Source of the DNA: a virus
Taxonomy: Duplodnaviria > Caudoviricetes
DNA: 64,000 bases
Reading direction: 5' to 3' (one strand)
Virus record (IMG/VR): IMGVR_UViG_2721755846_000001
Location: 5,152 to 69,151 of that record
The translations under genes were made by a program, and so were the position numbers. The notes below the pieces were generated by a model. It was given only the letters and a program-made list of their open reading frames with translations, was not told the origin of the DNA and ran no database searches. Positions 17,197 through 53,223 of the stretch are shown in pieces; within the stretch, counting starts at the first letter, position 1, and each line of letters opens with the position of its first letter.

Positions 17197-17205
17197 GGCT
17201 CTCCT

Positions 17206-17240
17206 GGGCATGAAAAAAGCCCCCGGGGCACGGAGGCTTT
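17206..17240 (-). terminator. Intrinsic terminator-like element upstream of capsid gene
   Basis: AAAGCCTCCG-TGCCC-CGGGGGCTTTTTTCATGCCC. Confidence 0.6.
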
Positions 17241-27295: not shown

Positions 27296-28441
<1,146 letters not shown>

Positions 28442-38375: not shown

Positions 38376-38789
38376 CTATGCCGTCCCTCCCATGATCGCG
38401 GCCAGTTCGCGGTCCATGTCGACGCCGTCCATCTCGTGGCACAGCGGCACCGCCGCATAGGTCAGCGTCAGGAACTGGTCGATGTCGTCGGCTATCGCAT
38501 GGAGTTCGCAGCGCCCGTCGGGGCTGTCCAGCGTGATGTGAACTTCGACGGGGTTGCACCGCCAGACGCGGACGTCGCCGCCTGTGCGGGGTTCGAGCTG
38601 CCGGGCGAGGCCGTCGGTGAGCAGGTCGCGGGCGAACGTCCACACCTGGACAGTGCCGTGCATCTCGTCACGGGTGACCATGACGACGGCGTAGGGATCA
38701 TCCGGCTCGTAGATCAGTTCGGAGCCTTCGAGCGGGCGGACGTGCCCGCGTCCGAGGATCAGTTCGAGGTCGATCGGTAGGGTTATCAC
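38376..38789 (-). CDS. SsgA-like protein (SALP; sporulation cell-division family)
   Basis: YEPDDPYAV, WTFARDLL..GL, GDVRVW, L.SPDG, FL..T...VP...E motifs; 137 aa. Confidence 0.9.
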   Translation of the reverse strand: MITLPIDLELILGRGHVRPLEGSELIYEPDDPYAVVMVTRDEMHGTVQVWTFARDLLTDGLARQLEPRTGGDVRVWRCNPVEVHITLDSPDGRCELHAIADDIDQFLTLTYAAVPLCHEMDGVDMDRELAAIMGGTA

Positions 38790-40939: not shown

Positions 40940-41481
40940 GTCGCACCCCCTGCCTGCTGCTCGGCAAGCCGCACCAGGTCGCCGGGCGTGACGTCGCCGG
41001 GCCAGCGCCCGTCACTGAACAGATTCCAGCCGCCGTCCATCGCGGCGCGGTCCGCGAGCTGCGAACAGATCATGGACTTCGACGACTCGATGAACCGCTT
41101 CAGTCGCGGGGTGGGGATGTGGAAGCGGTGCAGCGCCAAGGCGCCGTAGTCCGCCCAGGAGTAGGGGACGCCCCGCCTGATCAGGCGTCCGCTCGCGTCG
41201 CGCTGCGGGCCGAAGGAACGCGCGGCGTCCGCGACGGCTGCACGGCATTCCTCGGGGCAGCACAGCCATAGCGGCGTCTGGTCGTCGTACCTGGACAGCG
41301 GCGACAGCAGCGCCCCGCCCGGCATCGCTTCGATGATCTTCCCGTCGCCGACGTAGACGAAGGCGTGACTGAAGTCCGCAAAGCCGTCGCCGTTCAGCCA
41401 CTGGCCGAAGCGGATCAACTGCCCGACGTAGCCGTCTATTCGCACCAGGCCGATGTCACCGGCCTGCGGTTCGTAGGTCAT
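40936..41481 (-). CDS. Permuted papain-like NlpC/P60 (YiiX-type) enzyme
   Basis: GDI, FSHAFVYVG, IEA, PY, ICSQL, TPGDL with His before Cys. Confidence 0.8.
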   Translation of the reverse strand: MTYEPQAGDIGLVRIDGYVGQLIRFGQWLNGDGFADFSHAFVYVGDGKIIEAMPGGALLSPLSRYDDQTPLWLCCPEECRAAVADAARSFGPQRDASGRLIRRGVPYSWADYGALALHRFHIPTPRLKRFIESSKSMICSQLADRAAMDGGWNLFSDGRWPGDVTPGDLVRLAEQQAGGAT

Positions 41482-41771
41482 GAGCCATCACCGTCCGGGA
41501 TCGTCGTCCTGATCGACCAGCGGGTGACGCTCTCGGCAGCGTCCCCCGTGCCGGTCACGTGCTTGTGCCCTTCGTCGTTCAGGTCGTAGACCCGCGTCCA
41601 GACCCACAGTTCGAATGGGCTGATTCGGATCTCTGCCGTGCAGTCCGGTCGGACACCCAGGCGACGGCACAGCTCTGCGACCAGGTCTCCGGTCTCCAGC
41701 GGCTGGCTCTGTTCGGCGATGCTCACCGGCAGGTGCTCGAAGTCGGCGGGGACGTCCGTGGGGCGCCCCAT
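41478..41771 (-). CDS. Hypothetical protein
   Basis: Start MGRPTD overlapping upstream TGA. Confidence 0.5.
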   Translation of the reverse strand: MGRPTDVPADFEHLPVSIAEQSQPLETGDLVAELCRRLGVRPDCTAEIRISPFELWVWTRVYDLNDEGHKHVTGTGDAAESVTRWSIRTTIPDGDGS

Positions 41772-42688
41772 CACTTCGCCGTGTAGCAGGTAGCCCACGT
41801 GACTTCGAGCGTGGCCTTCGCACCAGGCTTGGCGTAGCCGCGGTTCGACAGCTTGCTGTTGCCGATGATCCGGCTCTCGTTCTGCCACACCCACGACGAC
41901 GTGGTCAGCGACGTCCCGCCGGACCGCAGCTTCTTCCCGTCCAGGTAGACGGTGACCGTGCCGCCGCGGCGCTCCCACGTGTACGTGTGCGCGGTCGTCA
42001 TGTACGCGGACGTCTGGACGTTCCACTCGCCGCCGCCGTGGTTGAACATCGCCACGTTGGAATCGGTGTAGTCGTCCACCTCGGGGTAGTCGACTTCGGC
42101 GCGGCCTTCGTAGCGCAGCCATGCCGACTTGAAGCCGGGGTTGGCCTGCGTCACCTTGACGCGGGCGCTGTACCGGCCGTCGCGCAGGTTCATGCACTTC
42201 TTGGGGACGACCGTGCCGACGACGTTGTTGCCGCCGCCAGCCGGCCGGTACATGGCGACCTTGAGCGTGCCGCCGCCGTCGTAGCCCTTGCCGATCGACA
42301 CCGTCTTCTGCGGCTCGTAGGTGCCGCCGTACGGGGCGCCCCCGTTGCCGTCGTTACCGGACTTGGCGGTGTCGTCCCAGCCCGACGGGTACGCCCACAA
42401 AGTGTCGCGCCACTTGCCCTTCAGCCCGGAGCAGTAGGCGTTGGGGCGGTCGGCGTTGTTGTTGCAGCCGCTGAATGAGCCGACCTTCACGGGCGCCGCA
42501 ACAGCGGAGTTGAAGTTCTCCGCCCACACCTGATGCCAGCCGGGGAGGTCCCCCGTCGGCATCGAGTTGGAGACAGGCGCCCCGGACGCGCCGGGGGCAA
42601 AAGAAAGGGCCGCCACGATGACGGCCCCTGTAGTGGCGGCTACCCCCGCCATAATGGATCGCTGCTTTACCTTCGCGTGCTTACCCAT
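41771..42688 (-). CDS. Secreted GH16-like glycoside hydrolase
   Basis: Signal peptide; W..VWAENF, GRYSARVK, EVDYPE (ExDxxE), HTYTWE, YLDG. Confidence 0.75.
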   Translation of the reverse strand: MGKHAKVKQRSIMAGVAATTGAVIVAALSFAPGASGAPVSNSMPTGDLPGWHQVWAENFNSAVAAPVKVGSFSGCNNNADRPNAYCSGLKGKWRDTLWAYPSGWDDTAKSGNDGNGGAPYGGTYEPQKTVSIGKGYDGGGTLKVAMYRPAGGGNNVVGTVVPKKCMNLRDGRYSARVKVTQANPGFKSAWLRYEGRAEVDYPEVDDYTDSNVAMFNHGGGEWNVQTSAYMTTAHTYTWERRGGTVTVYLDGKKLRSGGTSLTTSSWVWQNESRIIGNSKLSNRGYAKPGAKATLEVTWATCYTAK

Positions 42689-42700
42689 GGTTCTCCTCGT

Positions 42701-43890
42701 TCATCGCTGGGCGTCCTCTTCGAATGCGCCGGCCGCGGCGTCGACGACGCGCGCGACGAATGCGGCAGGGCCGTGAACGGATATCGCCCACAGTTGGCCG
42801 CCGTCGCGGCCGAATGACACGTCCGCCTGATATTGCGGCAGCGTGTCGGCGGGCGCGGCCGTCTTCTCTCCGTCCATGCGTTTCAGCTCCTCCGATATGC
42901 GCCCCTGCGGACGGCACGTTTCGTGCGCGCACCACGCGAATAGGTCTGACCATTCCTTGCGGCACGGGTGTTGGGCCTTTGCTGCCATCTATGGCGCCCT
43001 GTCTTTCACTAGATCGATGACGCCGCCGGGACAGATTTCCTTGGCGAGCGACTCGCCGATCTTGTACTCATCGCCCTTGGGCCACGGTCCGGAGCGGTAG
43101 ATGTAGTGGCGCATGACGACGGCCGCGCTCTCGCGCTCCCCTACGCCCCCTTCGGGGCGGACCTGGCCGCAGCCGGGGCAGTAGTAGCGGGGCGCCGTCA
43201 CGTCCGGCTCAGACAGCGGCGGCGGCACGCTGGGGATGGGCCGCTTACGCCGCCGTACCTGGTTGACTGCCATGCTCCTGGGGGTCATCGTCCGTGCCTT
43301 CCTTTGCGGGATGCCGGTAGCAGATGCCGTCGTCGGTGCCGCCGCCCTCGGCAGTCCAGACCTGTCGTCGCCGTCCGCATCTACAAGCAGGCCCTGGCGC
43401 GACTTGCTTCGCCCACAGACCCGCCTCCCATGCCGCGATATCCGCCCGGATCACTGCAACCTTTTCGGTGCTGATCTCGTTGGCAGTCTCGCGCTTCCCT
43501 TTAGCCATCCGCTTCGGCGAGTTCGACCAGCCGCCGGAAGCTCGCGGCGAGTTCGTCGACTCGCCCTTTCTCGCGGTAGCGGCGGGACGCCGATGCGGCG
43601 CTTTCGCCGGGATACCTGACGTCCAGGGATATGGATTTGAGGTCCAGCTGCGCGGCGCGGATTTTCAGCTCTGCTATGACCAGCGGGTGAACGGTCATTG
43701 GCTACCCTCCTTGCTTCACGGTCGTGGACATGGTCAGATCTCCGGTGATTTTGAAGTCGTGCTCGTAGGCGCACAGGAACGCGTCGAAGTGCTCGCCCCT
43801 GGTCGCGATGAACCCGTGCGGCAGGCAGCGGACAGCAAACCCGCCCGGCTCTTCGTCGATCCACACGACGTGCCAGCGGTCGTCTTGCAC
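42701..43890 (-). other. Cluster of about five small hypothetical genes
   Basis: ORFs 42701..42988, 42989..43288, 43245..43508, 43501..43698, 43702..43890 with tight spacing. Confidence 0.5.
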
Positions 43891-43902
43891 CGCCCCCCCT
43901 CA

Positions 43903-43936
43903 CGAAGAAAGCCCCCGACCGGATGGTCAGGGGCTG
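43903..43936 (-). terminator. Intrinsic terminator
   Basis: AGCCCCTGACC-ATCC-GGTCGGGGGCTTTCTTCG. Confidence 0.65.
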
Positions 43937-43952
43937 CGGTATTTCGAACTGC

Positions 43953-44447
43953 TCAGGCGCTGGCTCGGTCGGCCAGCTGCTGACGCCACGCGACGGAGCC
44001 GGCGACCTCGAAGGCGTACTCAGTGATCACGCATCCGAGGTGTGCGCCCGGTTTCAGGTCCGGTTGCTTCACGGGGACCAGCACGGGCACGCCGTCGCGG
44101 AAGGTGCCGAGGTGCTTCCAGACCCAGCCGTCCGGGACGTAGCGCTCGCCGGGCGGCAAGTACAGATCGCGGAGGTCGTACTCGAATCCGGTTCCCGGGT
44201 TGGTCCACGTGTTGGCTTCGGTGGCCTTCGCGCTGCACGCCTCGCACAGCTGGTCGCCGTTCATGTGGGCGGCGCAGAAGTAGAAGCCGCACCCGAACTC
44301 GTCACCGCCGGGCGTCTGCCCGCAGAGGAACGCCAAGCCTCGGTCTATCGCTTCGTCGCACCCGTCCTTGTCGCATTCGGCGTCGACCCCGTACCCGGCT
44401 TCGATCCCTTCGCCGTTGCGGGTGACTGTGTAGTACGCGTAGCCCAT
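43953..44447 (-). CDS. Cys-rich phage hypothetical protein
   Basis: MGYAYY..AGYGV.A.CD..GC...IDRGLA.LCG...GCG.YFC..H. Confidence 0.7.
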   Translation of the reverse strand: MGYAYYTVTRNGEGIEAGYGVDAECDKDGCDEAIDRGLAFLCGQTPGGDEFGCGFYFCAAHMNGDQLCEACSAKATEANTWTNPGTGFEYDLRDLYLPPGERYVPDGWVWKHLGTFRDGVPVLVPVKQPDLKPGAHLGCVITEYAFEVAGSVAWRQQLADRASA

Positions 44448-44463
44448 CGAGATCCTTTCCGGT

Positions 44464-44486
44464 CCCCGTTGCACGCTGCAACGGGG
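44464..44486. repeat. Perfect 10-bp inverted repeat at the cassette end
   Basis: CCCCGTTGCA-CGC-TGCAACGGGG. Confidence 0.8.
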
Positions 44487-44501
44487 GTGTTGCGGGGGCG
44501 G

Positions 44502-44840
44502 TCAGTCGCGGGACTGCCGCCACATGTCGCGCAGCACGACGACGCAGATCGTCAGCGCGACTGCAACGAGCGCGAGGACGGCCGCAACGATGGCGAGTCC
44601 GATCAGCAGGAAGAACGCGATCACGCCCAGGAAGGCGAGCGCGAACACCGCCGCGCAGCCGCCCGCCAGGTACATCCCCCACGGCCTTGCGACGATCGGC
44701 TGTTGCGGTGCAACGGCAGGCTGTTGCGGCCAGCCGTAGATGGGCCGTCCGTCGCTGTCGATGCCGATCTGCGGGGGCGCGGCGGGCGCCACGGGTACGG
44801 GCTGCGGCGGCGGATGGCGGGGCTGCAACGGGCTGTACAC
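44502..44840 (-). CDS. SpdD-like spread membrane protein
   Basis: Pro/Gln-rich N-terminus, long hydrophobic stretch ending ICVVVLR. Confidence 0.6.
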   Translation of the reverse strand: MYSPLQPRHPPPQPVPVAPAAPPQIGIDSDGRPIYGWPQQPAVAPQQPIVARPWGMYLAGGCAAVFALAFLGVIAFFLLIGLAIVAAVLALVAVALTICVVVLRDMWRQSRD

Positions 44841-44854
44841 GGGTTCCTCCGGAG

Positions 44855-45025
44855 CTAATTGCCGAGGCCGTGACTGACGCCGCCCTCGCGGTTCATCTGG
44901 TCAATGACTTCGTTCATGTTGTGGTGATACGTGGCGTACTGCGGGTCGTCAGCCGACGTGTTCTTGCACAGCTCCGCAGTTTCGGCGAGGTACTTGCGCA
45001 TGTCGTCGGCGCTGGGGTGGCTCAT
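44855..45025 (-). CDS. Small hypothetical protein (56 aa)
   Basis: GAGGAG RBS; MSHPSADDMRKYLAETAELCKN; below ORF-track cutoff. Confidence 0.55.
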   Translation of the reverse strand: MSHPSADDMRKYLAETAELCKNTSADDPQYATYHHNMNEVIDQMNREGGVSHGLGN

Positions 45026-45112
45026 GGATTGCTCCTCAGGTGGCGGGCTCGGGACTGCCCCCGGGCTCCCCTCACCGCCGGGAGTGCAGGGTCCGGCGGA
45101 TCGGGCAGCCAG

Positions 45113-45451
45113 TCAGATCCCGTAGCCGGCGCTGCGGGCGGCCCGCTCGACACGGCGCAGCCCGCGGGCAACTTCGCGCTCTTCGTCGCGTGCGGCACGC
45201 CTGTCCGCCCCGGTGCGGGCGGTGCGCACCTTGATCTTCGCGGCGGCGGCATCGCGCCGGGCTCCGGCGAGGACGTTGCGCATCGCCTCTTCGTCGGTCC
45301 GACGCCGCTCTTCGGCGCGGTCGTGAATGCGGTTCTGCGCGCGGTCGCTGCCGCCTGCGTTGTCGTCGCCGGCCGCGATGACGCGACGGCCGGCCTTCCA
45401 TTCCAGCCGGGCGAGACGCATGGTCTCGCCCCACGTGTACTTGCCGGGCAT
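45113..45451 (-). CDS. Arg-rich AICE/plasmid-type hypothetical protein
   Basis: Start MPGKYTWGE after AGGAGG. Confidence 0.6.
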   Translation of the reverse strand: MPGKYTWGETMRLARLEWKAGRRVIAAGDDNAGGSDRAQNRIHDRAEERRRTDEEAMRNVLAGARRDAAAAKIKVRTARTGADRRAARDEEREVARGLRRVERAARSAGYGI

Positions 45452-45486
45452 GTCGGGCCTCCTGCTGTTGCGGGGTTCGCCGGTGG

Positions 45487-45654
45487 TCACCACCAGCCGG
45501 ACTTCTTCTTGGGCACGATGTTGGGGTGGCCGTGGATCATGTGGTCCACGCACTGCGGGCAGTCCTCCCGGGGACCGAGGTCGCGGTGTGCGCGTCGGTC
45601 GTGGGCGTGCTGCCAGCACTGCGGACACTCGCCCGGTGGCGTCGAAGTGGCCAT
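45487..45654 (-). CDS. pRL2-8-like small Cys/His protein
   Basis: PPGECPQCWQHAHD...H..L.PREDCPQCVDHM..GH. Confidence 0.7.
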   Translation of the reverse strand: MATSTPPGECPQCWQHAHDRRAHRDLGPREDCPQCVDHMIHGHPNIVPKKKSGWW

Positions 45655-45680
45655 CGGCACTCCTCTCGGAGAGACGGATG

Positions 45681-45932
45681 TCATCGGGTGCCCGCGTCGT
45701 GGACGGCGCGGACGGTGTTATGGATGCGGCGGCCCACGCGAAGGCGCAGGCCGGTTGCCTTGCAGCGACGGCATGGCTTGCCGCGCCTGGGCTTGCCGTG
45801 CCGGTCCGTCTTCATGCGAAAACCCATGCCGCCGCACCTGCGGCAGTTGCCGAACGGCTTGACCCAGCAGAGCAGCGAGTAGATGGCCAGCAGTGCAATA
45901 ACGAGCGCCGTAGTGGCCAGCGCAGAAGCCAT
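45681..45932 (-). CDS. Membrane-anchored DnaJ-type zinc-finger protein, usual traB neighbour
   Basis: TM helix, PFGNCRRCGGMG...CRRCKATG.R.R.GRR. Confidence 0.7.
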   Translation of the reverse strand: MASALATTALVIALLAIYSLLCWVKPFGNCRRCGGMGFRMKTDRHGKPRRGKPCRRCKATGLRLRVGRRIHNTVRAVHDAGTR

Positions 45933-45976
45933 GACTTCCGCCTCCCAGGCGGATTTAGGGGGTGTCGCGGGGTGGG

Positions 45977-46056
45977 GGTGCTACGTGCTGCACCGCAGGC
46001 CAGCACCGCTTTAGGGTGCTAGCAGAGGTGCTACGCGTAGCAGCGGACGGTGCTAC
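45977..46056. repeat. clt-like locus with 8-bp repeats GGTGCTAC
   Basis: Perfect copies at 45977, 46027, 46049; variants at 45984, 46015; inverted variants near 46001 and 46037; abuts traB stop. Confidence 0.75.
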
Positions 46057-48149
46057 CGGCCTTGATCGAGCGAGGCGCGCTCAATGCCGCGTCTCGTGGT
46101 GCGCTTGCCGTCGTCGGTGTAGCCCGCGATGTCCTTCGTTTCGATGCCGTGCGGCTTCAGGTTCGCGGTGACGGTCTCGCCCTTCCATCCGTCGTAGATG
46201 TCGGGGCGCAGCGCGGCGAGCCTCGCGGCAACGCGCTCGTTCCAGATGCTCTTCTCGTCTGCGGCGACGACCCTGCGGACGTCGGCGACCAGATCGAATG
46301 TCGGCTCGCCGGACTCGGGGGCCTGGCCGATCGCGTGGCCGGTGACGTTGCCGTATTCCTCGCGCACGCTGCGGGCCCGCTTCGCGACCAGCTCAGCCGC
46401 GGGCGCGTCGACGAACGAACCGCACACGATGATCGGCTCGTCGCCTTCGCCGGACATCCAGCAGATGCCCTTGTCGGAGCGGCTGAACATCGTTGCCCGG
46501 TACCCCGCCTTGTACATCGACGTACTGAGAATCATGTCGTTCTCGATCTGGCCCATGACCTTCAGCGCGAAGCGGAGCACCGCGTTCGCTGAGATGCCGG
46601 TGGGCAGCGACTTCTTGTCGGGGCGCTGCGTGCCGAACATCGCGATCATCCCGAGCGCCGGCCCGCGCTTCACCAGGTCCGTGCAGATCGACTCGATCTC
46701 CGCGCCGTACTTCTCGTGTTCAAAGGCGACCTGGCATTCGTCCAGCGCAACGGCGATCGGATGCAGCCCGTACCGCTTGTCGCTGGCCAGCTGGCTCGTC
46801 ACCTTCGACTCGGGGCAGATGGCGTGCGGCAGTTCCTTGATGACCTTCGCCCGCCGCCGCAGTTCTGCCTTCAGTTCCCGCAGCGCGTACAGGCAGTACT
46901 CGACGTCTTCGTCTTCCTCGCCGGAGCGGTAGCGGTGCGCTACGCACTCCAGCGTGCGGAAGTCGCCGGTGCCCTTGAAGTCGAACATCAGCAGCACAGC
47001 CCGCGGATCGAGGGCGCACATCAGCAGCAGCAGCCGCATCAAGAACGTCTTGCCCATGCGGGGAATCGACCCGATGACGACGGACGCGAACATCAGCGTC
47101 ACGCTGATCCACTGCATGCGCTGGTCGTTGCCGAAGACGACGGGCTTGAACAGGTCGACGGTCCCCGACTTGAGCAGCGGCCACGCGGGCTTCTGCGTCT
47201 CGTTCATCGGGCGGTCCCCGACGTACAGCACGAGACGCCCTTCATGCTCGGCAGGATCGCCAGCCGGCCACACGCAGCCCAGCTTGCGGCGCAGCCCCGA
47301 GGCCATCGCCTTGCGCTCTTCCATCACGTCTTCCGGCGTGACGCCGTAGGGGAGATCGAGTTCGGCGCGGTAGCCGGGGCCGTCGCGGCAGATCTCGGAG
47401 GTGAACCGCATGCCGTCCATGTCGCCGCCCCGCTTCAGCGCGGCGTTGATCTGCGTGTTGCCGATAGCTCCGAGCGCCCGAATCACGATGGACGAAGTCA
47501 GCTTCTGGACTTCGGTCTTCAGCACAGCAGGCCCGATGACGGGGGCGTCCAGGTGCTGGCCTGCGTAGCCGAGACCCATCACGCCCGCCGCGGCGAACAC
47601 CCACAGCCAGCCGGGCGCCATTACGTACAGCGTCGCCGCCAGACCCAGGCCGATGGTTCCCGCAACGACCGTGGCGAGACCCCGCAGCCGCACCCGTCCC
47701 GCCCGCAGCCGGGCGAGGCTCATGTATTCGCTCGCGTCTTCCTGCCGCACCGCGTAGTCCCGCAGCGGCGCCGCCTCGCGGTCCCACAGCCAGCGGTTCG
47801 CGGACGTCACCAGGCGGGCAGCTCCGGCCGGTGCACGCGCCGCGAGGCGGGCCGGATACACACCGCCGACGGTGCGCACCCCGTGGTACAGCGACGCATA
47901 CGCGACGTGCGCACCGACGTGCCGTGCGGTTGCCAGGAAGTCACGGCGGTTCGTCATCCAGTTCGCGATGACAGGGCGCCGCTTCTCGGTCACCACGCCG
48001 GGCGCGGGCAAGTCCGGGTTGTCGACCAGGACGGGCGCCGCGTCGGGTTCCAGGCTGTACGTCTCGGTATCGGGGTCGGCGTCGTCGACTTTGGTGAACG
48101 TCACCGGCCGGTTGTCCAGGGCGCCGCGCGTGCCGTCGGGAATGGTCAT
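46053..48149 (-). CDS. traB: TraB, FtsK/SpoIIIE-family conjugative dsDNA translocase
   Basis: Start MTIPDG overlapping upstream TGA; two TM helices; SIPRMGKT Walker A; DFKGTGD; VALDECQ Walker B; KRGPALG, TQRP; C-terminal winged helix. Confidence 0.9.
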   Translation of the reverse strand: MTIPDGTRGALDNRPVTFTKVDDADPDTETYSLEPDAAPVLVDNPDLPAPGVVTEKRRPVIANWMTNRRDFLATARHVGAHVAYASLYHGVRTVGGVYPARLAARAPAGAARLVTSANRWLWDREAAPLRDYAVRQEDASEYMSLARLRAGRVRLRGLATVVAGTIGLGLAATLYVMAPGWLWVFAAAGVMGLGYAGQHLDAPVIGPAVLKTEVQKLTSSIVIRALGAIGNTQINAALKRGGDMDGMRFTSEICRDGPGYRAELDLPYGVTPEDVMEERKAMASGLRRKLGCVWPAGDPAEHEGRLVLYVGDRPMNETQKPAWPLLKSGTVDLFKPVVFGNDQRMQWISVTLMFASVVIGSIPRMGKTFLMRLLLLMCALDPRAVLLMFDFKGTGDFRTLECVAHRYRSGEEDEDVEYCLYALRELKAELRRRAKVIKELPHAICPESKVTSQLASDKRYGLHPIAVALDECQVAFEHEKYGAEIESICTDLVKRGPALGMIAMFGTQRPDKKSLPTGISANAVLRFALKVMGQIENDMILSTSMYKAGYRATMFSRSDKGICWMSGEGDEPIIVCGSFVDAPAAELVAKRARSVREEYGNVTGHAIGQAPESGEPTFDLVADVRRVVAADEKSIWNERVAARLAALRPDIYDGWKGETVTANLKPHGIETKDIAGYTDDGKRTTRRGIERASLDQGR

Positions 48150-49027
48150 GACCGGAACGCGTCCACGTCTGCGGCGTCGAAGACGTGCGATCCGCCGTCG
48201 GCGCCTTCCGCAACGGGCGTCAGCCGGCCGCGGTGCACCCAGGAGCGGACCGTCTCTGTCTTCACGCCTTTGGCGCGCGCGACCTCCGCCGTCGTCATCG
48301 TCATGCCACGCACCGCAACAGGCGGCGTGGCATGACGCGCGATGGGCAGCAGTGCGACGCCCGCCGGAACGACATCCGCCATCGGTGAACTGCGCCGCGC
48401 AACAGGGGGCGTGACGATGACGGCGGGAGCCGTGGCAGCCGCCACGATGGGCAGCAGCCGCACCCCCGGAGGGACAGCGTCCGCCCACCGGAAAGCAGTC
48501 GCGGCGGGAGACGCTGCAACGGGGGGCGTTGCGCCCCGCGACGCCTGGTACGCCGTCGCAACGCGACCCCATACGAGCGATGCAAGGTGCGTGCCGAACC
48601 CGATACAGATGACGGGCGCCGCGCTCGCGAGGATCACGTGCCCCCATGTCGGCGCATCGCTGGACGCATCGACGCCGGCGGCTGCGCTGCCGTGTGCAAC
48701 GTTCAGGGTGAGGCTGATTGCGGTCAGTCCGATGACGGTGCCGATCGCCCACCGGTAGCCGCTCGATCCGTAAAGGGCGATGGATGCGACGACGGACAGT
48801 CCGGCGAGCAAGTCGATTACCAAGGGGTAGAACTGCCGGACTTCGTGAAGGCCGATGGTGTCGGCGGTGTCGCGCAACGGGACCCATGAGACGCGCATGC
48901 CGACGACGGCGACGAGCGTCAGGGCTACGAGGATGACGGCGAACCCGACCAGTGATGCAGTCAGGTTCCACCGTGCGGCGGTATTGATCACCGCAGGGGG
49001 TGCGGCACTACTCTTCTTGCGGGCCAT
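48146..49027 (-). CDS. SpdA/DUF2637-like membrane protein with C-terminal MerR-type HTH
   Basis: Four TM helices (YPLVID, SLTLNVAH), Pro/Ala linker, TTAEVARAKGVKTETVRSWVHRGRL. Confidence 0.75.
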   Translation of the reverse strand: MARKKSSAAPPAVINTAARWNLTASLVGFAVILVALTLVAVVGMRVSWVPLRDTADTIGLHEVRQFYPLVIDLLAGLSVVASIALYGSSGYRWAIGTVIGLTAISLTLNVAHGSAAAGVDASSDAPTWGHVILASAAPVICIGFGTHLASLVWGRVATAYQASRGATPPVAASPAATAFRWADAVPPGVRLLPIVAAATAPAVIVTPPVARRSSPMADVVPAGVALLPIARHATPPVAVRGMTMTTAEVARAKGVKTETVRSWVHRGRLTPVAEGADGGSHVFDAADVDAFRS

Positions 49028-49201
49028 GGAGGTCGTATCTCCTGGTCAAGGGTCCCGGTGTCGGTTGCAGCCTTCGCCGGGGCCCGCTGGTTGAGCCCCG
49101 CAAGTGCGGGACCGCTTATCGCTATACGCCTCAGCGGCCGTACGCCGCAAGGGTGTTCGGGGATTCGCCACGGCGCGACACCCCTGACGGGGCGGGTGGG
49201 A

Positions 49202-50870
49202 TCAGAAGTCGTGGATGCAGTGCGGGCACGACCAGATCTCTTCGCCGGACGTGGCGTCAGGCATCTCGGCACTGGCTTCGTCGGAGTGCCGCTTGCGCAT
49301 CTCGGCAAGCTCCGCGTTGTGGTCGCGGATGAGATCCGCCTCGGCCTGGAAGACGTGGAAGCACTCGCCGCACACGCGGTAGATGTCCGCGCCCATCGGC
49401 TCGCTGCGGCCGTGACTCCAACACCAGTCACCGGGCAGCGGATCGGGCCAGTCGGCGTCAGGCATTGGCCACCTGCCCGCGCACCCACAGGTCATAGGCG
49501 GCGAACGCCTGCGCCATCGTGCCGTCGTCGGCGTATACGACTTGTGCCAATAGGCAGGAGTCGCAGCCCCCGCAGGGCGGGTCCCATGTCCAGCCGCCGC
49601 ATGACTTGTAGGCGGGACAGTCCTCGTTGGCGCAGAAGAAAACCCCGACCAGTTCGAACCATTGGTCGGGGCAAGTGCAGTCAGTCATGAGCGCGGTCCG
49701 CCTCGGATATGAGATCCGAGTTCCATACCGTGCTAGTGCGGCCGTTGGCCCATTCCACGTCCACGAACTGAGCGTCGGGGTAGGTCGCAGATTCGCGGGG
49801 CCGTACGCTCTTTGCCTTGCCGGGGCTGTCGTCGTACCAGACGTCATCGCCCGGCTTGAATTTGGTCATCAGGTTCCTTTCGTTGCAGTGTTGCTCAGCC
49901 CCACCAGGAGCACAGCAGCCATTGCGCCTGCTCCTGGGTCGGCGTCATGCCGAGGACTGCGAGAGCGTCGCGCAGCTTGTCGTCCCACTCGGGACTAACC
50001 GTGAAGTCGACGTGCTTGCAGTCGCCGCGGTACGCCGTGAGGACCGAGCCCTTAGCGGCGAGCGTGTACATGGGGTATTCGCCGGAACAGTACGACTTGA
50101 ACTCGACTCCGAGGCGGGCCTCTGCCTCGCGCTCGCGGTCGAAGAAGCCGTCAACCATGTAGTCGGTTTCCGTGAATCCGACGGACGCCATCAGCCGCTT
50201 CTCTGCGGCCGACTCGAAGTCGTTCTCTTCGACGTCAAGCCAATCGAGCCTGAGTTCGCCGTACTCGCCGACTTCGCGTACCTTCCACTCCGCGTCGCCC
50301 CCGGCGAGGTCGTAGCCGTAGACGAGAATGCCGTTCGTTGACTGACCCATCAGGTTCCCTTCCGTGACAAGGCGTCGATCAGCCGCCGCGCTTCAGCGAC
50401 ATTGGCGAGCGCCCACTTGTGGTGGTAGTAGCGGTTCCGGCAGTGACGCAATGCGTTGCCGTACGTGCGCTTCCATGTCGTCGTGCCGCCGTAATAGGTA
50501 GAGCCTGTCTGCGAGCAGATCAGGCACACCCAGCGCCACCGGTCTTTGTCTTTGCGGATGATGACGCAGGTGGTCACGGCTTCCGCGCCTTGTGGAATGC
50601 CCGGACTTCAGCGCGAGTCCACGCAAGGCGGACCCGGAGCTGAGTGAAGTTGACACACGCAATCGCTTCGTTGCGCTCGATGCGTACGCTGAAGTTCCGG
50701 CACCGCGGACACGTCGCCGTGAGATTGGCGCCGTTGGGGCAACCCGGTCCCGGATCAGTCGGCTTGCAGTAGTACGAGTAATCCGAATAGCACTCGCAGC
50801 CGAACGCGTTGACGCGATAGCCGTGCCACCCGCAGCCCGTACAGTCGACGCGATAGCGCTGCGGCTTCAC
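49202..50870 (-). other. Cluster of small phage hypothetical genes, several Cys-rich
   Basis: ORFs ending at 49202, 49458, 49681, 49895, 50350, 50574 with overlapping starts and stops. Confidence 0.55.
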
Positions 50871-51787
50871 GTCCCCTTCCTTTCCTGTAGCCGGTAGCCA
50901 CTGCGCACGGTGGCCTCGCCCTGCCGATAGCCGCCGCGCCCGTTCGCGCTGGCATACGCGTTCGCGAGCGCCTCTATGGCTTCGTCAATGGGGATGCTGT
51001 CGCCGCATGCGGCGCGCGCGGCCCACAGCGTGGCGTTGTTAAGGTTCCCGTCTTCGGCATTGCGGACGGTTTCGACCAGGCCTGAGATGCCACCCGTCTT
51101 CCGCGGCTGCGCGAACAGCGGCTTCGGCGGCGGGGGCTTCTCACGGCACAGCTCGACAAGCCACCGCGGGGCAGGCGCTATCGGCGTCGCATTCTCTGCG
51201 ACGTACCGGCCCTTGGATGTGACGGAGCCGGCGCCTAGCACATACCCTCCGTGCTGGCCCCCGTTGCCGCGGACATCGAGACTGCCCTTGACGATGGACG
51301 CCTGCGAAGCGCGGACACCGGGAGGCCACGAGAAATACAAATGCAAACCCATCGACCCGGTTGTCACGCGGTACGTAGCATTCAGTTCTTCCCAGTCGCC
51401 GCCGTGTCGTTCACATACCGCACGCAGTACGTCGTGCCCGTCGACCCAGGGTCCGAGCTTTTCGTGAAGGTCTTCGTACGCCGTACCGCGTAACTGATAC
51501 TCAGCCTTTGCTATGTCACAGTCCAGAATCAGAAGACCGGACTGCCGCGCCGCAACTGCTGGATTGGCGAGCGGCGACCAGGTCCACATCTCGATAACCC
51601 GGTCAAGGTCGCTGGTCACTTCCTCCGGCCAGCGCACTTTGTACGGTTTGTTTGTGCCCGGATAAAGTAGGTGCGGCTGCTTGTCGATGACGTCGCCGGA
51701 CTCCGGGCACACCGTTCCGGCAGGGTTACACGGGAAGATCGACAGGCGTTGTTGAATGGCGCCGATCGCGTAGCCGATCAAGCTCAT
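50867..51787 (-). CDS. Bifunctional DNA primase/polymerase (Prim-Pol)
   Basis: IFPC, KQP, LLILDCD, TGSMGLHLYF, LDVRG..GYV, AP.WL; TTA codon at Leu99. Confidence 0.9.
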   Translation of the reverse strand: MSLIGYAIGAIQQRLSIFPCNPAGTVCPESGDVIDKQPHLLYPGTNKPYKVRWPEEVTSDLDRVIEMWTWSPLANPAVAARQSGLLILDCDIAKAEYQLRGTAYEDLHEKLGPWVDGHDVLRAVCERHGGDWEELNATYRVTTGSMGLHLYFSWPPGVRASQASIVKGSLDVRGNGGQHGGYVLGAGSVTSKGRYVAENATPIAPAPRWLVELCREKPPPPKPLFAQPRKTGGISGLVETVRNAEDGNLNNATLWAARAACGDSIPIDEAIEALANAYASANGRGGYRQGEATVRSGYRLQERKGT

Positions 51788-51909
51788 CGCGAAGTCCCTT
51801 CTTCATCAAACGGGCGGGGACGGGGTGAGCACGCACCGCCGTCAGGGGAAGCACCCGCCCCCGCCCGCATGACGAAGGGGGGCCCGTTCCGAGGCGGGCC
51901 CCCCTGGGA

Positions 51910-52251
51910 TCACTCGCCGTTCAGCGCGGCGTGAGCTTCTTCGAACGCGGCGCGCGCCACGTCCAGCGCCTTGCCCGCCGCTTCGAGAGCCGGCCCGACG
52001 TGGGCGCCCTCGCCCTGTACGGCCTCGAACTTCAGGCGCGCCGCTTCGAGCCGCGCGGCGTGCGTGTCGAAGGCCTTCTGCGCCTTGTCGAACTTCACCG
52101 TGGCGCGCTCGAACTCCCCCGCCACCTTCGCGAAGGTCAGCGGCTTCCGGCCTCGCTTCTTCGGCTCCGACTCCGGCTCGGGGGTCTCGCCCTCGACCCC
52201 GCCGTCCCAGTCCTCATCGTCCTCGTACGGCTCTGCGACAACTTCGCTCAT
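51910..52251 (-). CDS. Coiled-coil hypothetical protein
   Basis: 113 aa; acidic N-terminus, KKRGRKP. Confidence 0.65.
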   Translation of the reverse strand: MSEVVAEPYEDDEDWDGGVEGETPEPESEPKKRGRKPLTFAKVAGEFERATVKFDKAQKAFDTHAARLEAARLKFEAVQGEGAHVGPALEAAGKALDVARAAFEEAHAALNGE

Positions 52252-52278
52252 GCGCGGGTCTCTCTCTTCCTGTGTCGT

Positions 52279-52315
52279 GGCATCAAAAAAGGACGCGCCC
52301 GGCGGGGTCGCGTCC
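52279..52315 (-). terminator. Intrinsic terminator
   Basis: GGACGCG...CGCGTCCTTTTTTGATGCC. Confidence 0.7.
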
Positions 52316-52332
52316 GTCTGGGGTGGGGCGGG

Positions 52333-53223
52333 TTACGCGCCGTACGTCGCCGCGATCATGCGAGCCTGGCCGTCCGTCATGCCCTCGGGATTGACGCCCT
52401 TGGACTGAAGGAACGCGGCCAGCTGCGGGTCAAGCGGCGCTGCGGGTGCAGCCTGCGCAGGGTTCGCCGCAGGTGCTGAAGGGGCGGGGCTCGGGGCAGG
52501 CACTCCCCACGGCTGAGGGGCAGGCGCACCACCCGTCATCGGGGGCGCAGCCTGTGCAGCAGGGGCCTGTACAGGAGCCGAGGCAGCCGCCCCCCACTGC
52601 CCCTGCGGAGGGCCCGCGGGAGCCGCCTGGGGTGCAGCCTGCGTGTTCTGCCACGGGTCGTACGGCAGCTGCGCAGAGGCGTACTGAGGGTGGCCGTTAC
52701 CCGAGGGAGCAGGGGCGGGCGCAGAACCGTAGGAAGGGGCAGCCGGCGCCTGTCCGTACGCAGGCTGCGGGGCTGCGCCGTACGGTGCCTGCGTAGGGCC
52801 CGCCTGCGGCTGGGCGAACTGCTGCCGCGGATGCGTGGCGATGTACTGCTGAGCGCCCGCGGCGTCCTGATCGGAGAAGTCGGCCAGGTAGTAGGCGCCG
52901 GACTTCTGCCCCTGTGCGGGGCTCTGCGTCAGCCGCCCCAGCACCATGGCACCGAGCTGCGTCTTCAGCTGCGGCACGAGAGCCTTGCCGCCGATGGTCG
53001 TTCCGGCCAGGACGGTGGGCTGCCCGGTCTGCGGATCCATCAGGTCGATGATGACCACGTCGGCTTCGACCATGTCCACGGGACCTTCGTCCTGCTGGAA
53101 CGTCTTCGACGTGACGCGGTCCGGATAGATCAGGAACAGCCTGCCGAGCCAGTCGGCGTGATCGCGCGGCGAGAAGAACCCGGAGTTCTTCGCGGGCTGC
53201 TTGAAGGGCGAAGGGGTTGTCAC
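52333..53223 (-). CDS. Putative ssDNA-binding protein with Pro/Ala/Gln tail
   Basis: ~130-aa beta core plus disordered tail; located between exonuclease and primase. Confidence 0.6.
   Translation of the reverse strand: MTTPSPFKQPAKNSGFFSPRDHADWLGRLFLIYPDRVTSKTFQQDEGPVDMVEADVVIIDLMDPQTGQPTVLAGTTIGGKALVPQLKTQLGAMVLGRLTQSPAQGQKSGAYYLADFSDQDAAGAQQYIATHPRQQFAQPQAGPTQAPYGAAPQPAYGQAPAAPSYGSAPAPAPSGNGHPQYASAQLPYDPWQNTQAAPQAAPAGPPQGQWGAAASAPVQAPAAQAAPPMTGGAPAPQPWGVPAPSPAPSAPAANPAQAAPAAPLDPQLAAFLQSKGVNPEGMTDGQARMIAATYGA

What the first reader, a model, noticed from the sequence alone, without database searches (positions are those of the whole stretch)
44464..49027. A tailed phage carrying a TraB/clt/Spd conjugation cassette
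Seen: between ordinary small phage genes sits a co-oriented block of spdA-like, traB (intact Walker A/B, TM helices, winged helix), an 8-bp repeat array, a DnaJ-type finger gene, a pRL2-8-like gene, two small genes and an SpdD-like membrane gene. The block has no integrase, excisionase, Rep or GntR-type TraR. Known: in Streptomyces, TraB plus clt suffices for dsDNA transfer between hyphae and Spd proteins promote intramycelial spread; the plasmid-phage pZL12 is a precedent for phage plus tra genes. Inference: the substrate would be the whole circular phage genome, giving a virion-independent, receptor-independent transmission route. Full integration into the phage's own gene array, rather than a plasmid backbone, is the unusual point.
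Basis: partly seen in the sequence, partly recalled or inferred. Interest (0 to 1): 0.88.

Follow-up and report, generated by a model that had tools for sequence, protein, structure and literature searches.

The report
Streptomyces prophage with TraB transfer cassette
A tailed temperate phage of a Streptomyces-type bacterium carries, as a conserved part of its own genome, the DNA pump and docking repeats that Streptomyces plasmids use for mating, so it may also spread as naked DNA between hyphae, which nobody has tested.

Summary
At 43953-49201 (minus strand) a complete-looking siphophage provirus carries a co-oriented block. It holds a membrane/HTH gene, a 698-aa TraB (FtsK-fold motor, two TM helices, winged-helix-like C-terminus), four TAGCACC repeats at the traB stop, a membrane zinc-finger gene, three small genes and a two-TM "SpdD-like" gene.

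traB, repeats and zinc-finger gene are syntenic with an integrative conjugative element (AICE) family of Streptomyces (TraB 54-74% identical). The block is not a nested AICE or an assembly artefact. A sister provirus has it at the same place, a third relative has it rearranged, no flanking repeats, integrase, GntR or NUDIX lie nearby, and contigs bridge both borders.

Phage-context TraBs form their own clades inside AICE TraBs. dN/dS is 0.23-0.29. Six further Streptomyces genomes and a Pseudonocardia "plasmid" that is a whole phage carry related TraBs beside capsid genes.

Corrections: gene 1 is not SpdA; a Prim-Pol lies 1.8 kb upstream; the missing integrase is probably a trimming effect, since a relative has a serine integrase beyond the record's end.

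Transfer of phage DNA remains inference. Precedents are the plasmid-phages pZL12 and pFP4. This scan noted similar cassettes before on other DNA.

The parts
49028..49201 (-). Non-coding spacer upstream of the cassette. Candidate promoter/operator: TTGCGG-N18-TATAGC and a short hairpin.
   Evidence: Mean column identity 89% to the sister provirus over the 221 aligned columns, which take in a few flanking coding bases, against about 80% for the cassette itself. The sequence was read. The promoter reading is my inference; the sigma-70 consensus scan found none.
48146..49027 (-). 293-aa membrane protein with a C-terminal HTH_17/MerR-type DNA-binding domain. Distant DUF2637+HTH relative. Its stop overlaps the traB start.
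   Evidence: Pfam HTH_17 E 2.9e-6. 4-5 hydrophobic segments. 64 homologues, of which 2 distant ones carry PF10935 (DUF2637) plus HTH_17. 75% identical in the sister provirus. dN/dS 0.27.
46053..48149 (-). traB: membrane-anchored FtsK-fold dsDNA translocase of the Streptomyces plasmid/AICE type, 698 aa.
   Evidence: 54% identity to the FtsK gene of an 18-kb AICE-like plasmid. 63-77% (best segment) to 73 of the 80 chromosomal relatives and 54-56% to the other 7. Walker A/B invariant. FtsK motor fold. Winged-helix-like C-terminus. dN/dS 0.23.
45977..46055 (-). clt-like array: 4 direct TAGCACC copies with GGTGC(T/A)G inverted copies between them. The first copy overlaps the traB stop codon.
   Evidence: All 4 window copies lie here. 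Sequence read. The same spacer in 23 of 26 related loci examined (phage and AICE contexts) holds CTAGCACC/CTAGCAGC/(C)TAGCG-type repeats.
45681..45932 (-). 83-aa membrane zinc-finger protein (TM helix plus CxxC...CxxC). Conserved partner gene directly after traB-clt.
   Evidence: A homologue follows traB in 73 of 80 genome loci, in L002 and L005 and in L007 and L009. TM helix. Weak DnaJ_CXXCXGXG hit. dN/dS 0.25.
45487..45684 (-). 65-aa CxxC...CxxC protein. Its start overlaps the stop of the zinc-finger gene.
   Evidence: ORF. Homologues near traB in 3 of 80 loci (L024, L031, L068). Absent from the sister provirus.
45113..45451 (-).
   Evidence: 10 homologues, 2 of them with PF19771. 56% identical in the sister provirus. 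dN/dS 0.55.
44855..45025 (-). 56-aa acidic protein of unknown role.
   Evidence: ORF with GC3 0.86. No family hit. Absent from the sister provirus.
44502..44840 (-). 112-aa protein with a Pro-rich N-terminus and two TM helices ('SpdD-like'). Found only beside phage-context TraBs.
   Evidence: 28 homologues with a conserved QPIVARPWG motif and a TM pair. One is named SpdD by UniRef. tblastn hits in 5 of 80 loci, all in non-AICE contexts. 71% identical in the sister provirus. dN/dS 0.29.
43953..44474 (-). 173-aa Cys-rich protein, last gene before the terminator. Probably the end of the transcription unit.
   Evidence: phrog_18518 E 1.7e-14 and phrog_9476 E 1.7e-13, both of unknown function. A partial homologue lies directly upstream of traB in L024.
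43910..43935 (-). Terminator-like hairpin (11-bp stem, 8 G-C pairs) followed by a T-rich tail.

Best explanation
The block is a working Streptomyces-type double-stranded-DNA transfer module. It consists of a TraB pump, its cis-acting clt repeats and small membrane partner proteins. Temperate siphophages captured it from an actinomycete integrative conjugative element (AICE), and it is now a stable, selected part of their genomes.

Proposed mechanism:
1. After excision, or during replication, the phage genome carries the TAGCACC array.
2. The C-terminal winged helix of membrane-bound TraB hexamers docks on that array.
3. The FtsK-type motor pumps the phage DNA as dsDNA through the hyphal envelope or septal cross-walls into a neighbouring compartment or hypha.
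4. The membrane proteins (293-aa HTH protein, 83-aa zinc-finger protein, 112-aa two-TM protein) help, as Spd proteins do for plasmids.

Shown: the parts, their relatedness to AICE modules, their conservation and selection in phages, and their recurrence.

Inferred: DNA binding, pumping, the identity of the substrate, and whether movement is between mycelia (conjugation), within one mycelium (spread), or both.
For: Parts.
- TraB has the FtsK motor fold (Foldseek E 1.9e-15), invariant Walker A/B, TM helices and a winged-helix-like C-terminus.
- The clt-like array lies exactly where plasmid clt sites lie. All 4 TAGCACC copies of the window fall within 79 nt at the traB stop. pWTY27 has 4 x TGACACC overlapping the end of traA, footprinted by TraA (PMC3583192, passages).
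- The motif type is kept in the same spacer in 23 of 26 related loci.

Origin.
- TraB is 54% identical to that of an excised AICE-like plasmid with GntR, NUDIX, Prim-Pol, xis and int.
- Of the 80 best genome relatives, 73 are 63-77% identical (best segment) and 7 are 54-56%. I class 62 of the 80 as AICE-type neighbourhoods.

Residence in phages.
- A collinear sister provirus has the cassette at the same place.
- A third relative (terL 77%) has traB-znf with the 112-aa and 65-aa genes in a different order.
- There are no flanking repeats.
- Contigs bridge both borders.

Selection.
- dN/dS is 0.23-0.29 for traB, the 293-aa, zinc-finger and 112-aa genes.
- 17 of 17 non-AICE-context traB genes are open frames without stops.

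Phylogeny.
- All 18 rows that I treat as phage-type (9 in phage context, 9 without any AICE gene beside traB) fall into two clades, SH-aLRT 96 and 95, nested among AICE TraBs.
- One clade for all 18 is not rejected (AU p 0.384).

Recurrence.
- An HK97-type capsid gene lies 7-25 kb from traB on the same contig in 6 of 17 such genomes. In 3 of them terL lies 2-6 kb downstream.
- pPaSha2 of Pseudonocardia alni, a 41.9-kb circular 'plasmid', is a whole phage (terminase, portal, protease, capsid, holin) with DUF2637 plus a TraB 44% identical.

Literature.
- TraB alone drives transfer, and TraB plus Spd proteins drive spread (PMC4447253, passages).
Against: - No experiment exists, and no RNA run was on offer.
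- No Kor/TraR-type (GntR) repressor is in the record. The block is co-oriented with early/replication genes, so it may be expressed only during lytic growth, when virions are made anyway.
- Only traB, the zinc-finger gene and (remotely) the DUF2637-like gene are shared with AICEs. The AICE genes s2-s4 have no counterpart here. I did not show any SpdB2-type gene.
- The Pfam FtsK hit is below the curated cut-off.
- tblastn of TraB against 50,697 deposited phage records found nothing at E 1e-5. Every example is therefore a predicted prophage or a 'plasmid' record, and none is known to make virions.
- The first TAGCACC copy is TAGCACG in the sister provirus.
- 10 of the 17 non-AICE loci are not shown to be phages. 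An eleventh (L088) has its capsid and terL genes on another, small contig.
- Transfer of an integrated prophage would first need excision. The integrase is seen only in a relative.
Confidence: 0.58

Rival explanations
1. The module is kept by the phage for something other than moving its own genome. Possibilities: lysogenic conversion that mobilises host chromosome or resident AICEs, which share the same repeat motif; exclusion of incoming plasmids or AICEs; tethering or segregating phage DNA at septa during sporulation.
For: - The repeat motif type (CTAGCACC/CTAGCAGC) is shared between phage-context and AICE loci, so cross-recognition is conceivable.
- Streptomyces phage papers list FtsK-like genes among host-development look-alikes (PMC13587820 and bioRxiv 10.1101/2024.02.16.580700, passages).
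- The phage also carries an SsgA-like gene (Pfam E 8.5e-20).
- No repressor of the Kor/TraR type was found.
Against: - The clt-like array sits in cis on the phage genome, directly after traB, and 3 of its 4 copies are kept in the sister provirus. That is what a self-transfer system needs.
- TraB here is close to AICE transfer proteins (up to 77% best-segment identity among the 80 genome loci), not to chromosomal FtsK.
- No evidence was found for any of the alternative roles.
Confidence: 0.25
2. The block is an independent AICE, or a remnant of one, that inserted into the prophage and is merely a passenger.
For: - traB-clt-zinc-finger synteny with AICEs.
- A Prim-Pol gene, the putative Rep type of those AICEs, lies 1.8 kb upstream.
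- Gene 1 ends in an excisionase-type HTH.
Against: - No integrase, GntR or NUDIX in the 69-kb record.
- The longest repeat flanking the block is 13 bp, within chance.
- The block has the same position in a sister provirus about 80% identical in DNA over the cassette, and is present but rearranged in a third relative.
- Prim-Pol is 28-34% identical to the AICE ones but 72% and 59% to those of the phage relatives.
- dN/dS is 0.23-0.29.
- Phage-context TraBs form their own clades.
Confidence: 0.05
3. The prophage is defective, or the cassette is inert: a fossil of a past phage-AICE recombination with no present function.
For: - No isolated phage in the collection carries this TraB.
- The closest isolated phage by terL is only 46.7% identical (Rhodococcus phage REQ1).
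- All examples are computational proviruses.
Against: - Open frames with intact catalytic motifs in all 26 aligned relatives and in 17 of 17 non-AICE loci.
- Purifying selection.
- A full virion gene set and a CheckV estimate of 100%.
- Near-identical fragments in soil metagenome contigs of another study.
Confidence: 0.1

Closest known systems
Transfer module of a Streptomyces AICE family with Prim-Pol replication genes. Example: plasmid unnamed1 of Streptomyces sp. NBC_00562, NZ_CP107792.1, with the gene order GntR-HD-NUDIX-XRE ... DUF2637 - RRQRL zinc protein - FtsK/TraB - 4 small genes - Prim-Pol - YfjI - HTH - integrase.
   Same: - TraB is 54% identical over 93% of its length.
- An 83-aa zinc-finger gene directly follows traB, 59% identical.
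- The repeat-rich spacer between them has a related motif.
- A membrane (DUF2637-type) gene lies upstream of traB.
   Different: - No integrase/xis, GntR, NUDIX, YfjI, RRQRL or GGDEF genes here.
- The small genes after the zinc-finger gene are unrelated.
- The surrounding 60 kb are phage genes.
Streptomyces plasmid-phages pZL12 (Zhong et al. 2010, J Bacteriol 192:3747) and pFP4 (Chen et al. 2012). I know both only through citing papers.
   Same: - One replicon combines tailed-phage virion genes with a Streptomyces tra function.
[quoted passage not shown]
   Different: - Those are free plasmids; pZL12 has ParA/ParB (PMC4487206, passages). This element has no ParB match. Its protein is on record on a 12-Mb contig, and a relative has a serine integrase at its end.
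- Its TraB gave no tblastn match in the phage collection. I could not confirm that pZL12 is in that collection.
- The primary pZL12 paper is not held.
TraB-clt-Spd system of small Streptomyces plasmids (pSVH1, pIJ101, pWTY27).
   Same: - A single FtsK-like translocase with N-terminal TM helices and a C-terminal wHTH.
- clt made of short direct repeats next to or overlapping the 3' end of tra.
- Small hydrophobic genes with overlapping stop/start codons (PMC4447253 and PMC3583192, passages; here).
   Different: - No TraR/Kor repressor.
- No demonstrated SpdB2, SpdB3 or Spd79 homologue.
- Sequence similarity to 7 other Streptomyces plasmid translocases is only 25-31% (rows H5-H12 less the Pseudonocardia row). 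I did not compare directly with pSVH1 TraB.
FtsK/SpoIIIE-like genes of lytic Streptomyces phages (for example Mandalore, Naboo, Jaresh, AndoPrime; PHROG 1358).
   Same: A phage-borne FtsK-family ATPase. PHROG 1358 matches residues 255-544 at E 3.2e-25.
   Different: - Those are reported without clt or partner genes and are discussed as development-related.
- None is similar enough to give a tblastn hit at E 1e-5.

Membership tests
TraB (Streptomyces conjugative dsDNA translocase) | FtsK/SpoIIIE-type motor domain with Walker A and B | tested here: met
   G366-K367-T368 and D470-E471 invariant in 26 of 26 rows. Foldseek FtsK motor E 1.9e-15, TM-score 0.66 on the target. Profile against PDB sequences: TcpA 7.8e-6, FtsK 8.7e-6. 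The Pfam hit is below the cut-off, 22.9 against 24 bits.
TraB (Streptomyces conjugative dsDNA translocase) | N-terminal transmembrane helices | tested here: met
   A hydrophobic segment at 158-176 by Kyte-Doolittle scan, with a second hydrophobic stretch read in the sequence up to about 200. Long helices 139-176 and 182-196 in the model.
TraB (Streptomyces conjugative dsDNA translocase) | [quoted passage not shown] | tested here: inconclusive
   The model shows a1-b1-a2-a3-b2-b3 at 620-695 with pLDDT about 83-87. No fold search of this domain alone was made, and binding was not tested.
TraB (Streptomyces conjugative dsDNA translocase) | Homology to Tra proteins of elements with conjugative architecture | tested here: met
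   54% identity to the FtsK gene of an int/xis/Prim-Pol/GntR/NUDIX plasmid. 62 of the 80 best genome relatives sit in such neighbourhoods. No direct comparison with an experimentally studied TraB.
TraB (Streptomyces conjugative dsDNA translocase) | Required for conjugative transfer | not testable with these tools
   Needs mating experiments.
[quoted passage not shown] | Several short direct repeats (7-9 bp), with inverted repeats, beside or overlapping the 3' end of tra | tested here: met
   4 x TAGCACC at 45977-46055, found nowhere else in 64 kb. Inverted GGTGCTGG/GGTGCAGC copies lie between them. The same layout occurs in relatives. Compare pWTY27.
[quoted passage not shown] | Bound by its Tra protein and needed in cis for transfer | not testable with these tools
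   Needs EMSA or footprinting and deletion matings.
SpdA (small DNA-binding spread/stability protein with sps palindromes) | About 14.7-kDa soluble protein with a conserved N-terminal DNA-binding region and SRDD/E motifs (PMC4170104) | tested here: not met
   Gene 1 is 293 aa with 4-5 membrane helices and a C-terminal HTH_17. Its homologues are HTH_17 or DUF2637 proteins. By eye there is no SRDD/E motif in the sequence. Family description from passages of PMC4170104.
DUF2637 (PF10935) membrane proteins found upstream of traB in AICEs | Match to the PF10935 profile | tested here: inconclusive
   No PF10935 hit at E 0.01 and no pairwise similarity to the H1 DUF2637 protein. However, 2 of 64 homologues (31% and 55% identity) carry PF10935 plus HTH_17, and 8 AICE loci have a 33-39% homologue upstream of traB.
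Spd proteins in general | Small, often hydrophobic proteins in an operon with tra, with overlapping stop/start codons | tested here: met
   TM helices in the 83-aa and 112-aa proteins. Overlaps at 48146-48149 and 45681-45684. Function in spread not testable. The name 'SpdD' rests on one UniRef label.
AICE (actinomycete integrative and conjugative element) | Own integrase/excisionase and att repeats bounding Int + Rep + Tra modules | tested here: not met
   No PF00589 or PF00239 match in the record. No flanking repeat over 13 bp. No GntR or NUDIX.
Plasmid-phage (pZL12 type) | Extrachromosomal maintenance with partition genes | tested here: not met
   No ParB_N match. The element's protein is on record on a 12,053,667-bp contig. 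A relative is integrated in a 354.6-kb contig between host genes, with a serine recombinase at its end. ParA was not searched.
Tailed temperate phage (Caudoviricetes provirus) | Terminase, portal, protease, HK97-type capsid, tape measure and tail genes in one array | tested here: met
   PHROG hits E 1e-60 to 3.4e-14. CheckV estimate 100%. Virion production not testable.

The most novel reading that the evidence does not exclude
A lineage of chromosome-integrating tailed phages of Streptomyces has two routes of transmission. One route is virions. The other is TraB-driven passage of the excised or replicating phage genome as naked dsDNA between hyphae and across septa. The second route does not depend on receptors and is invisible to adsorption-based resistance. 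Because the phage clt motif is of the same type as that of a large AICE family, phages and AICEs could also mobilise each other. The phage-specific 112-aa membrane protein would be a new partner of the pump.
Probability: 0.35. Interest if true: 0.85.

Novelty: new variant of a known kind. Interest (0 to 1): 0.62.

Why it matters
Phage spread is normally thought to depend on virions and receptors. Streptomyces plasmids show that one membrane pump plus a short DNA site is enough to move dsDNA between hyphae.

If integrating prophages use the same device, several things follow:
- Lysogeny could spread through a mycelium, or to phage-resistant neighbours, without lysis.
- Host-range and resistance assays based on plaques would miss this route.
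- The line between prophage and integrative conjugative element would blur for a whole group of soil bacteria that matter for antibiotic production.

The case is directly testable in laboratory Streptomyces with standard knockouts and matings. It also points to gene flow from AICEs to phages, with one or two captures, which bears on how mobile elements exchange modules.

Tried and rejected
1. Megablast of 44000-49500, and tblastn of TraB, against 50,697 phage records gave no match. No isolated phage could therefore serve as a comparison.

2. I looked for an integrase inside the record and found none. I first read this as a possible plasmid-prophage. I dropped that reading for three reasons: the record ends fall on gene borders, a relative has a serine recombinase beyond the homologous end, and the protein is on record on a 12-Mb contig.
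   - The PF07508 and PF00589 genome searches did not flag that recombinase. It was found by reading ORFs and confirmed by Pfam.

3. Pairwise BLASTP of gene 1 against the H1 DUF2637 protein showed no similarity.

4. The sigma-70 consensus scan found no promoter in 43000-52500. The consensus suits Streptomyces poorly, so this says little.

5. Sequencing runs: no RNA holder was listed, so nothing can be said on expression.
   - In one search, two other contigs of the source run gave matches of 19-29 nt at 44557-44585, 45232-45250, 45726-45750, 48611-48629 and 52112-52133, and a 'joint' 44585>52112 with 1863 letters between. I treated these as short chance or paralogous matches and did not follow them.

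6. The IMG/VR relatives L008 (13.9 kb, 27% complete) and L009 (46 kb, with a tyrosine integrase) gave no PF05065 capsid match and no terL match. Their nature stays open, and I did not count them as phages.

7. Literature searches for a TraB/AICE-type module in integrated prophages found no paper describing it.
   - The primary pZL12 paper is not held.
   - I did not open supplementary files of any paper. The AICE tables of PMC9513070 and PMC3218068 might list Tra genes in prophage regions.

8. I considered and rejected assembly chimerism and a nested AICE.

Full report
WHAT THE WINDOW IS

The window is bases 5152-69151 of a 69,151-bp IMG/VR record classed as a provirus, with a CheckV estimate of 100%. 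G+C is 61-71%, and nearly all high-GC3 frames run on the minus strand.

PHROG profiles identify the following genes:
- terL, 19842-21416, E 1e-60
- portal, 18394-19857, E 2.2e-41
- prohead protease, 17256-18404
- major capsid protein, 15937-17211, E 1.5e-37
- tape measure, 6678-10826
- a tail protein, 1548-2699

Upstream in the direction of transcription lie non-structural genes:
- an Rpf-type transglycosylase/NlpC-P60/LysM protein, an AAA_25 helicase-like protein and a Prim-Pol at 50867-51787
- an exonuclease and a DNA methyltransferase
- an SsgA-like protein

The closest deposited phage by terL is Rhodococcus phage REQ1, at 46.7%. This is therefore a tailed-phage genome of a Streptomyces-type host, known only as a prophage.

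THE BLOCK, GENE BY GENE

Gene 1 (48146-49027, 293 aa)
- It has 4-5 hydrophobic helices and a C-terminal HTH_17/MerR domain.
- Of its 64 homologues, most carry HTH_17 only. Two distant ones carry DUF2637 plus HTH_17.
- It is not a SpdA in the sense of Thoma et al. 2014, which is a 14.7-kDa DNA binder with SRDD/E motifs (PMC4170104, passages).

traB (46053-48149)
- It starts at an ATG that overlaps the stop of gene 1.
- It has invariant Walker A and B residues and hydrophobic helices at about 158-200.
- Its AlphaFold model has a mean pLDDT of 72.6. The core of the model matches FtsK motor domains (E 1.9e-15) and the pCW3 coupling protein TcpA.
- Its C-terminus at 620-695 has the strand-helix order of a winged helix.
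- The Pfam FtsK match is just under the curated cut-off.

The small genes after the traB spacer
- An 83-aa protein with one TM helix and CxxC...CxxC.
- A 65-aa CxxC protein.
- A basic protein of about 112 aa whose relatives include DUF6257.
- A 56-aa protein.
- A 112-aa protein with a proline-rich head and two TM helices. It has 28 homologues, one of them labelled SpdD by UniRef.

The end of the unit
- A 173-aa Cys-rich gene and a strong terminator-like hairpin at 43910-43935 probably close the unit. The functional block thus runs from about 49201 to 43910, slightly beyond the given coordinates.

THE REPEAT ARRAY

TAGCACC occurs 4 times in 64 kb. All four copies lie at 45977-46055 on the gene strand, and the first spans the traB stop codon.

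About 4 copies are expected by chance in the whole window. By my own arithmetic, the chance that three further copies fall within 79 nt of the first on the same strand is of the order of 1e-10.

I examined the same spacer, between traB and the zinc-finger gene, in 26 related loci. In 23 of them, phage and AICE contexts alike, it holds a patterned set of CTAGCACC / CTAGCAGC / (C)TAGCG-type repeats. The exceptions are L004, L008 and L009.

This is the layout described for plasmid clt sites. An example is the four TGACACC repeats that overlap the end of traA in pWTY27 and are footprinted by TraA (PMC3583192, passages).

WHERE THE MODULE COMES FROM

TraB gave 12 plasmid records. The best is an 18-kb circular Streptomyces plasmid with the architecture of an excised AICE: GntR, HD, NUDIX, XRE, DUF2637, an RRQRL zinc protein, FtsK, four small genes, Prim-Pol, YfjI, HTH and integrase. 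Its TraB is 54% identical to this one.

A scan of one genome per species found 518 relatives among 600 candidate stretches. The best 80 were kept, and nearly all come from Streptomycetaceae.

tblastn with the plasmid's proteins and the window's proteins against these 80 loci gave the following:
- The zinc-finger gene follows traB in 73 of 80.
- 62 of 80 have further AICE genes beside traB.
- 18 of 80 have none. One of those 18 is a 2-kb contig without context.

Of the window's cassette, only traB, the zinc-finger gene and, weakly, gene 1 (8 of 80 loci) have counterparts in AICE loci. The 112-aa gene has hits in 5 loci, all without AICE genes.

NOT A NESTED AICE AND NOT A CHIMERA

- The record has no tyrosine or serine recombinase, GntR, NUDIX or ParB match.
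- The longest direct repeat between the two flanks is 13 bp, which is no more than chance gives.
- A sister provirus (G001, 71,107 bp; terL 85%) is collinear with this record from end to end. It carries gene 1 (75%), traB (82%), the zinc-finger gene (70%), the DUF6257-like gene (56%) and the 112-aa gene (71%) at the same place. It lacks the 65-aa, 56-aa and 173-aa genes.
- A third relative lies in a 354.6-kb Streptomyces contig (G005; terL 77%) and is collinear over 81 kb. There the order is Prim-Pol ... 112-aa gene, 65-aa gene, a fragment of the 173-aa gene, traB, zinc-finger gene, SsgA-like gene.
- The Prim-Pol of the window is 72% and 59% identical to those of the two phage relatives, but only 28-34% identical to AICE Prim-Pols. 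It belongs to the phage.
- Contigs of the (possibly source) run bridge 41000-46611 and 46585-53000 without a difference. Soil-metagenome contigs of another study bridge 44364-45026 and 48465-49204.

SELECTION AND PHYLOGENY

Between the two sister proviruses, dN/dS (NG86, my script) is:
- 0.23 for traB
- 0.27 for gene 1
- 0.25 for the zinc-finger gene
- 0.29 for the 112-aa gene
- 0.55 for the DUF6257-like gene

I built a quick maximum-likelihood tree of 86 TraB rows (LG+G4, SH-aLRT only; row L092 was dropped because its match was short). The window groups with G001, L024 and L046, with support 96. A second clade of 14 rows (support 95) holds 5 rows in phage context and 9 rows with no AICE gene. 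That second clade is sister to 29 AICE rows (support 98), and everything is nested among further AICE rows.

A tree that holds all 18 non-AICE rows together is not rejected (AU p 0.384). I chose that group after seeing the tree, so the test only shows that one capture is not excluded.

HOW OFTEN IT RECURS

Seventeen loci lack AICE genes and have usable context.
- Six have an HK97-type capsid gene 7-25 kb from traB on the same contig: L024, L045, L046, L048, L067 and L069.
- Three of these have a terL 2-6 kb after traB and the zinc-finger gene.
- L088 has its capsid and terL genes on a separate small contig.
- Of the other ten, two have tape-measure-like hits and most share upstream neighbours with the phage loci. 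They are not shown to be phages.

L069 lies on a 56.9-kb contig that its record labels as a plasmid.

pPaSha2 of Pseudonocardia alni is filed as a 41.9-kb circular plasmid. It encodes terminase, portal, prohead protease, major capsid protein, holin and Bet, together with DUF2637 and a TraB 44% identical to this one.

Notes of this scan report similar cassettes in many other genomes: 125 notes in at least 110 genomes. These are unchecked AI notes. I use them only to say that the scan has seen this before.

INTEGRATION

The record begins with the reverse of a stop codon and ends with the reverse of a start codon, as does the sister record. Its borders were therefore set by a gene-based tool and are not att sites.

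In G005 the homologous region ends at 92,117. A 513-aa protein with a Resolvase domain (E 1.5e-12) and a recombinase zinc ribbon lies at 96,646-98,187, next to host-like genes. Urease genes lie on the other side.

The window's own gene-1 protein is on record on a 12,053,667-bp contig. So the phage is an integrating prophage, and its integrase most likely lies just outside the record.

MECHANISM AND RIVALS

Established knowledge (Thoma et al. 2015, PMC4447253, passages; PMC3583192):
- TraB hexamers in the membrane recognise clt through the C-terminal domain and pump unprocessed dsDNA.
- traB is the only gene essential for transfer of pSVH1.
- Spd membrane proteins are needed for spread across septa.

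This phage carries a close relative of such a pump, with a matching repeat array in cis and conserved membrane partners, all under purifying selection. The most economical reading is that it moves its own DNA in this way. That could happen from a lysogen after excision, or between compartments during infection.

I put 0.58 on this reading. The rivals are:
- another role for the module (0.25)
- an inert fossil (0.10)
- a passenger AICE (0.05)

The main weaknesses are these:
- no repressor of the TraR/Kor type
- co-orientation with lytic early genes
- no expression data
- no isolated phage with this TraB

WHAT IS KNOWN AND WHAT IS NEW

Already known:
- Plasmid-phages that conjugate as episomes and also make particles: pZL12 and pFP4. 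I saw them only through citing passages, and the primary pZL12 paper is not held.
- Thoma et al. 2015 remark that SpdB2 homologues on actinophages might help spread phage DNA.
- FtsK-like genes are listed in lytic Streptomyces phages as development-related.
- Ghinet et al. 2011 set aside FtsK-domain hits outside Int+Rep+Tra regions as possible remnants or prophages, without describing them (PMC3218068, passages).

My six full-text searches found no description of an AICE-type traB-clt-zinc-finger module as a resident, selected part of chromosome-integrating tailed prophages. I did not open supplementary files.

I therefore rate it a new variant of a known kind.

LIMITS

- All function is inferred.
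- The tree is a quick one.
- The neighbourhood classes rest on tblastn with one plasmid's genes and one phage's genes.
- The TM and dN/dS figures come from simple scripts.
- The winged-helix reading rests on a predicted model.

Noticed in passing
window 44478-44493, 44710-44727, 48516-48532; L007 9618-9634, 12890-12907, 12911-12928: The palindrome GCAAC-N6-8-GTTGC occurs 4 times in the window against 0.26 expected. Three copies lie in the cassette: one in the spacer after the 112-aa gene, one inside that gene, and one inside gene 1. In the sister provirus all 3 copies in 22 kb lie in the homologues of the same two genes. By my reading of the sequences, the copies in gene 1 and in the 112-aa gene sit in different reading frames, and the spacers differ between the two phages while the arms are kept. 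This suggests binding sites (perhaps for the HTH of gene 1) embedded in coding DNA, like sps in spdA. The lead came from another first-reader note.
   Followed up: partly
window 49028-49201: The 174-bp spacer upstream of gene 1 is better conserved with the sister provirus (about 89% over the aligned stretch) than the coding DNA around it (about 80%). It holds TTGCGG-N18-TATAGC and a CCCGC/GCGGG hairpin. It may be the cassette's own promoter or leader.
   Followed up: partly
G005:C6 96646-98187 (L100 16646-18187), relative of this phage: A large serine recombinase (Resolvase plus a recombinase zinc ribbon) lies 4.5 kb beyond the homologue of this record's leftmost gene, after an IrrE/M78-type peptidase gene. 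The IMG/VR record of this window probably stops short of its integrase and immunity genes.
   Followed up: yes
CP052773.1 (L004, L006), Pseudonocardia alni plasmid pPaSha2: A 41.9-kb circular record filed as a plasmid encodes terminase, portal, prohead protease, major capsid protein, holin and Bet, plus DUF2637 and a TraB homologue. It is a phage-plasmid or an excised prophage with a transfer gene, in another actinomycete order.
   Followed up: partly
L069 (Streptomyces sp. CWNU-52B, contig labelled plasmid unnamed2, 56.9 kb); also L048 and L067: A second type of phage context: 112-aa-like gene, traB, repeats, zinc-finger gene, an AAA_33 kinase-like gene, then terL, portal, protease and capsid within about 8 kb. 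Here the transfer module abuts the packaging genes.
   Followed up: partly
window 38376-38789 and 27296-28438: An SsgA-family protein (Pfam E 8.5e-20) and a secreted Rpf-transglycosylase/NlpC-P60/LysM protein (E 2.9e-35, 3.4e-20, 5.1e-6) are encoded by the phage. Both look like host cell-division or cell-wall factors and could bear on septa and wall passage.
   Followed up: partly
window 41000-53000, runs X2 and X3: Soil-metagenome contigs of a 2025 study hold fragments 96-99% identical to parts of the cassette and its flanks. Close relatives of this phage therefore occur in soil.
   Followed up: partly
window 59667-59740: A tRNA-Asn(GTT) gene lies on the minus strand among early genes (ARAGORN).
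   Followed up: no
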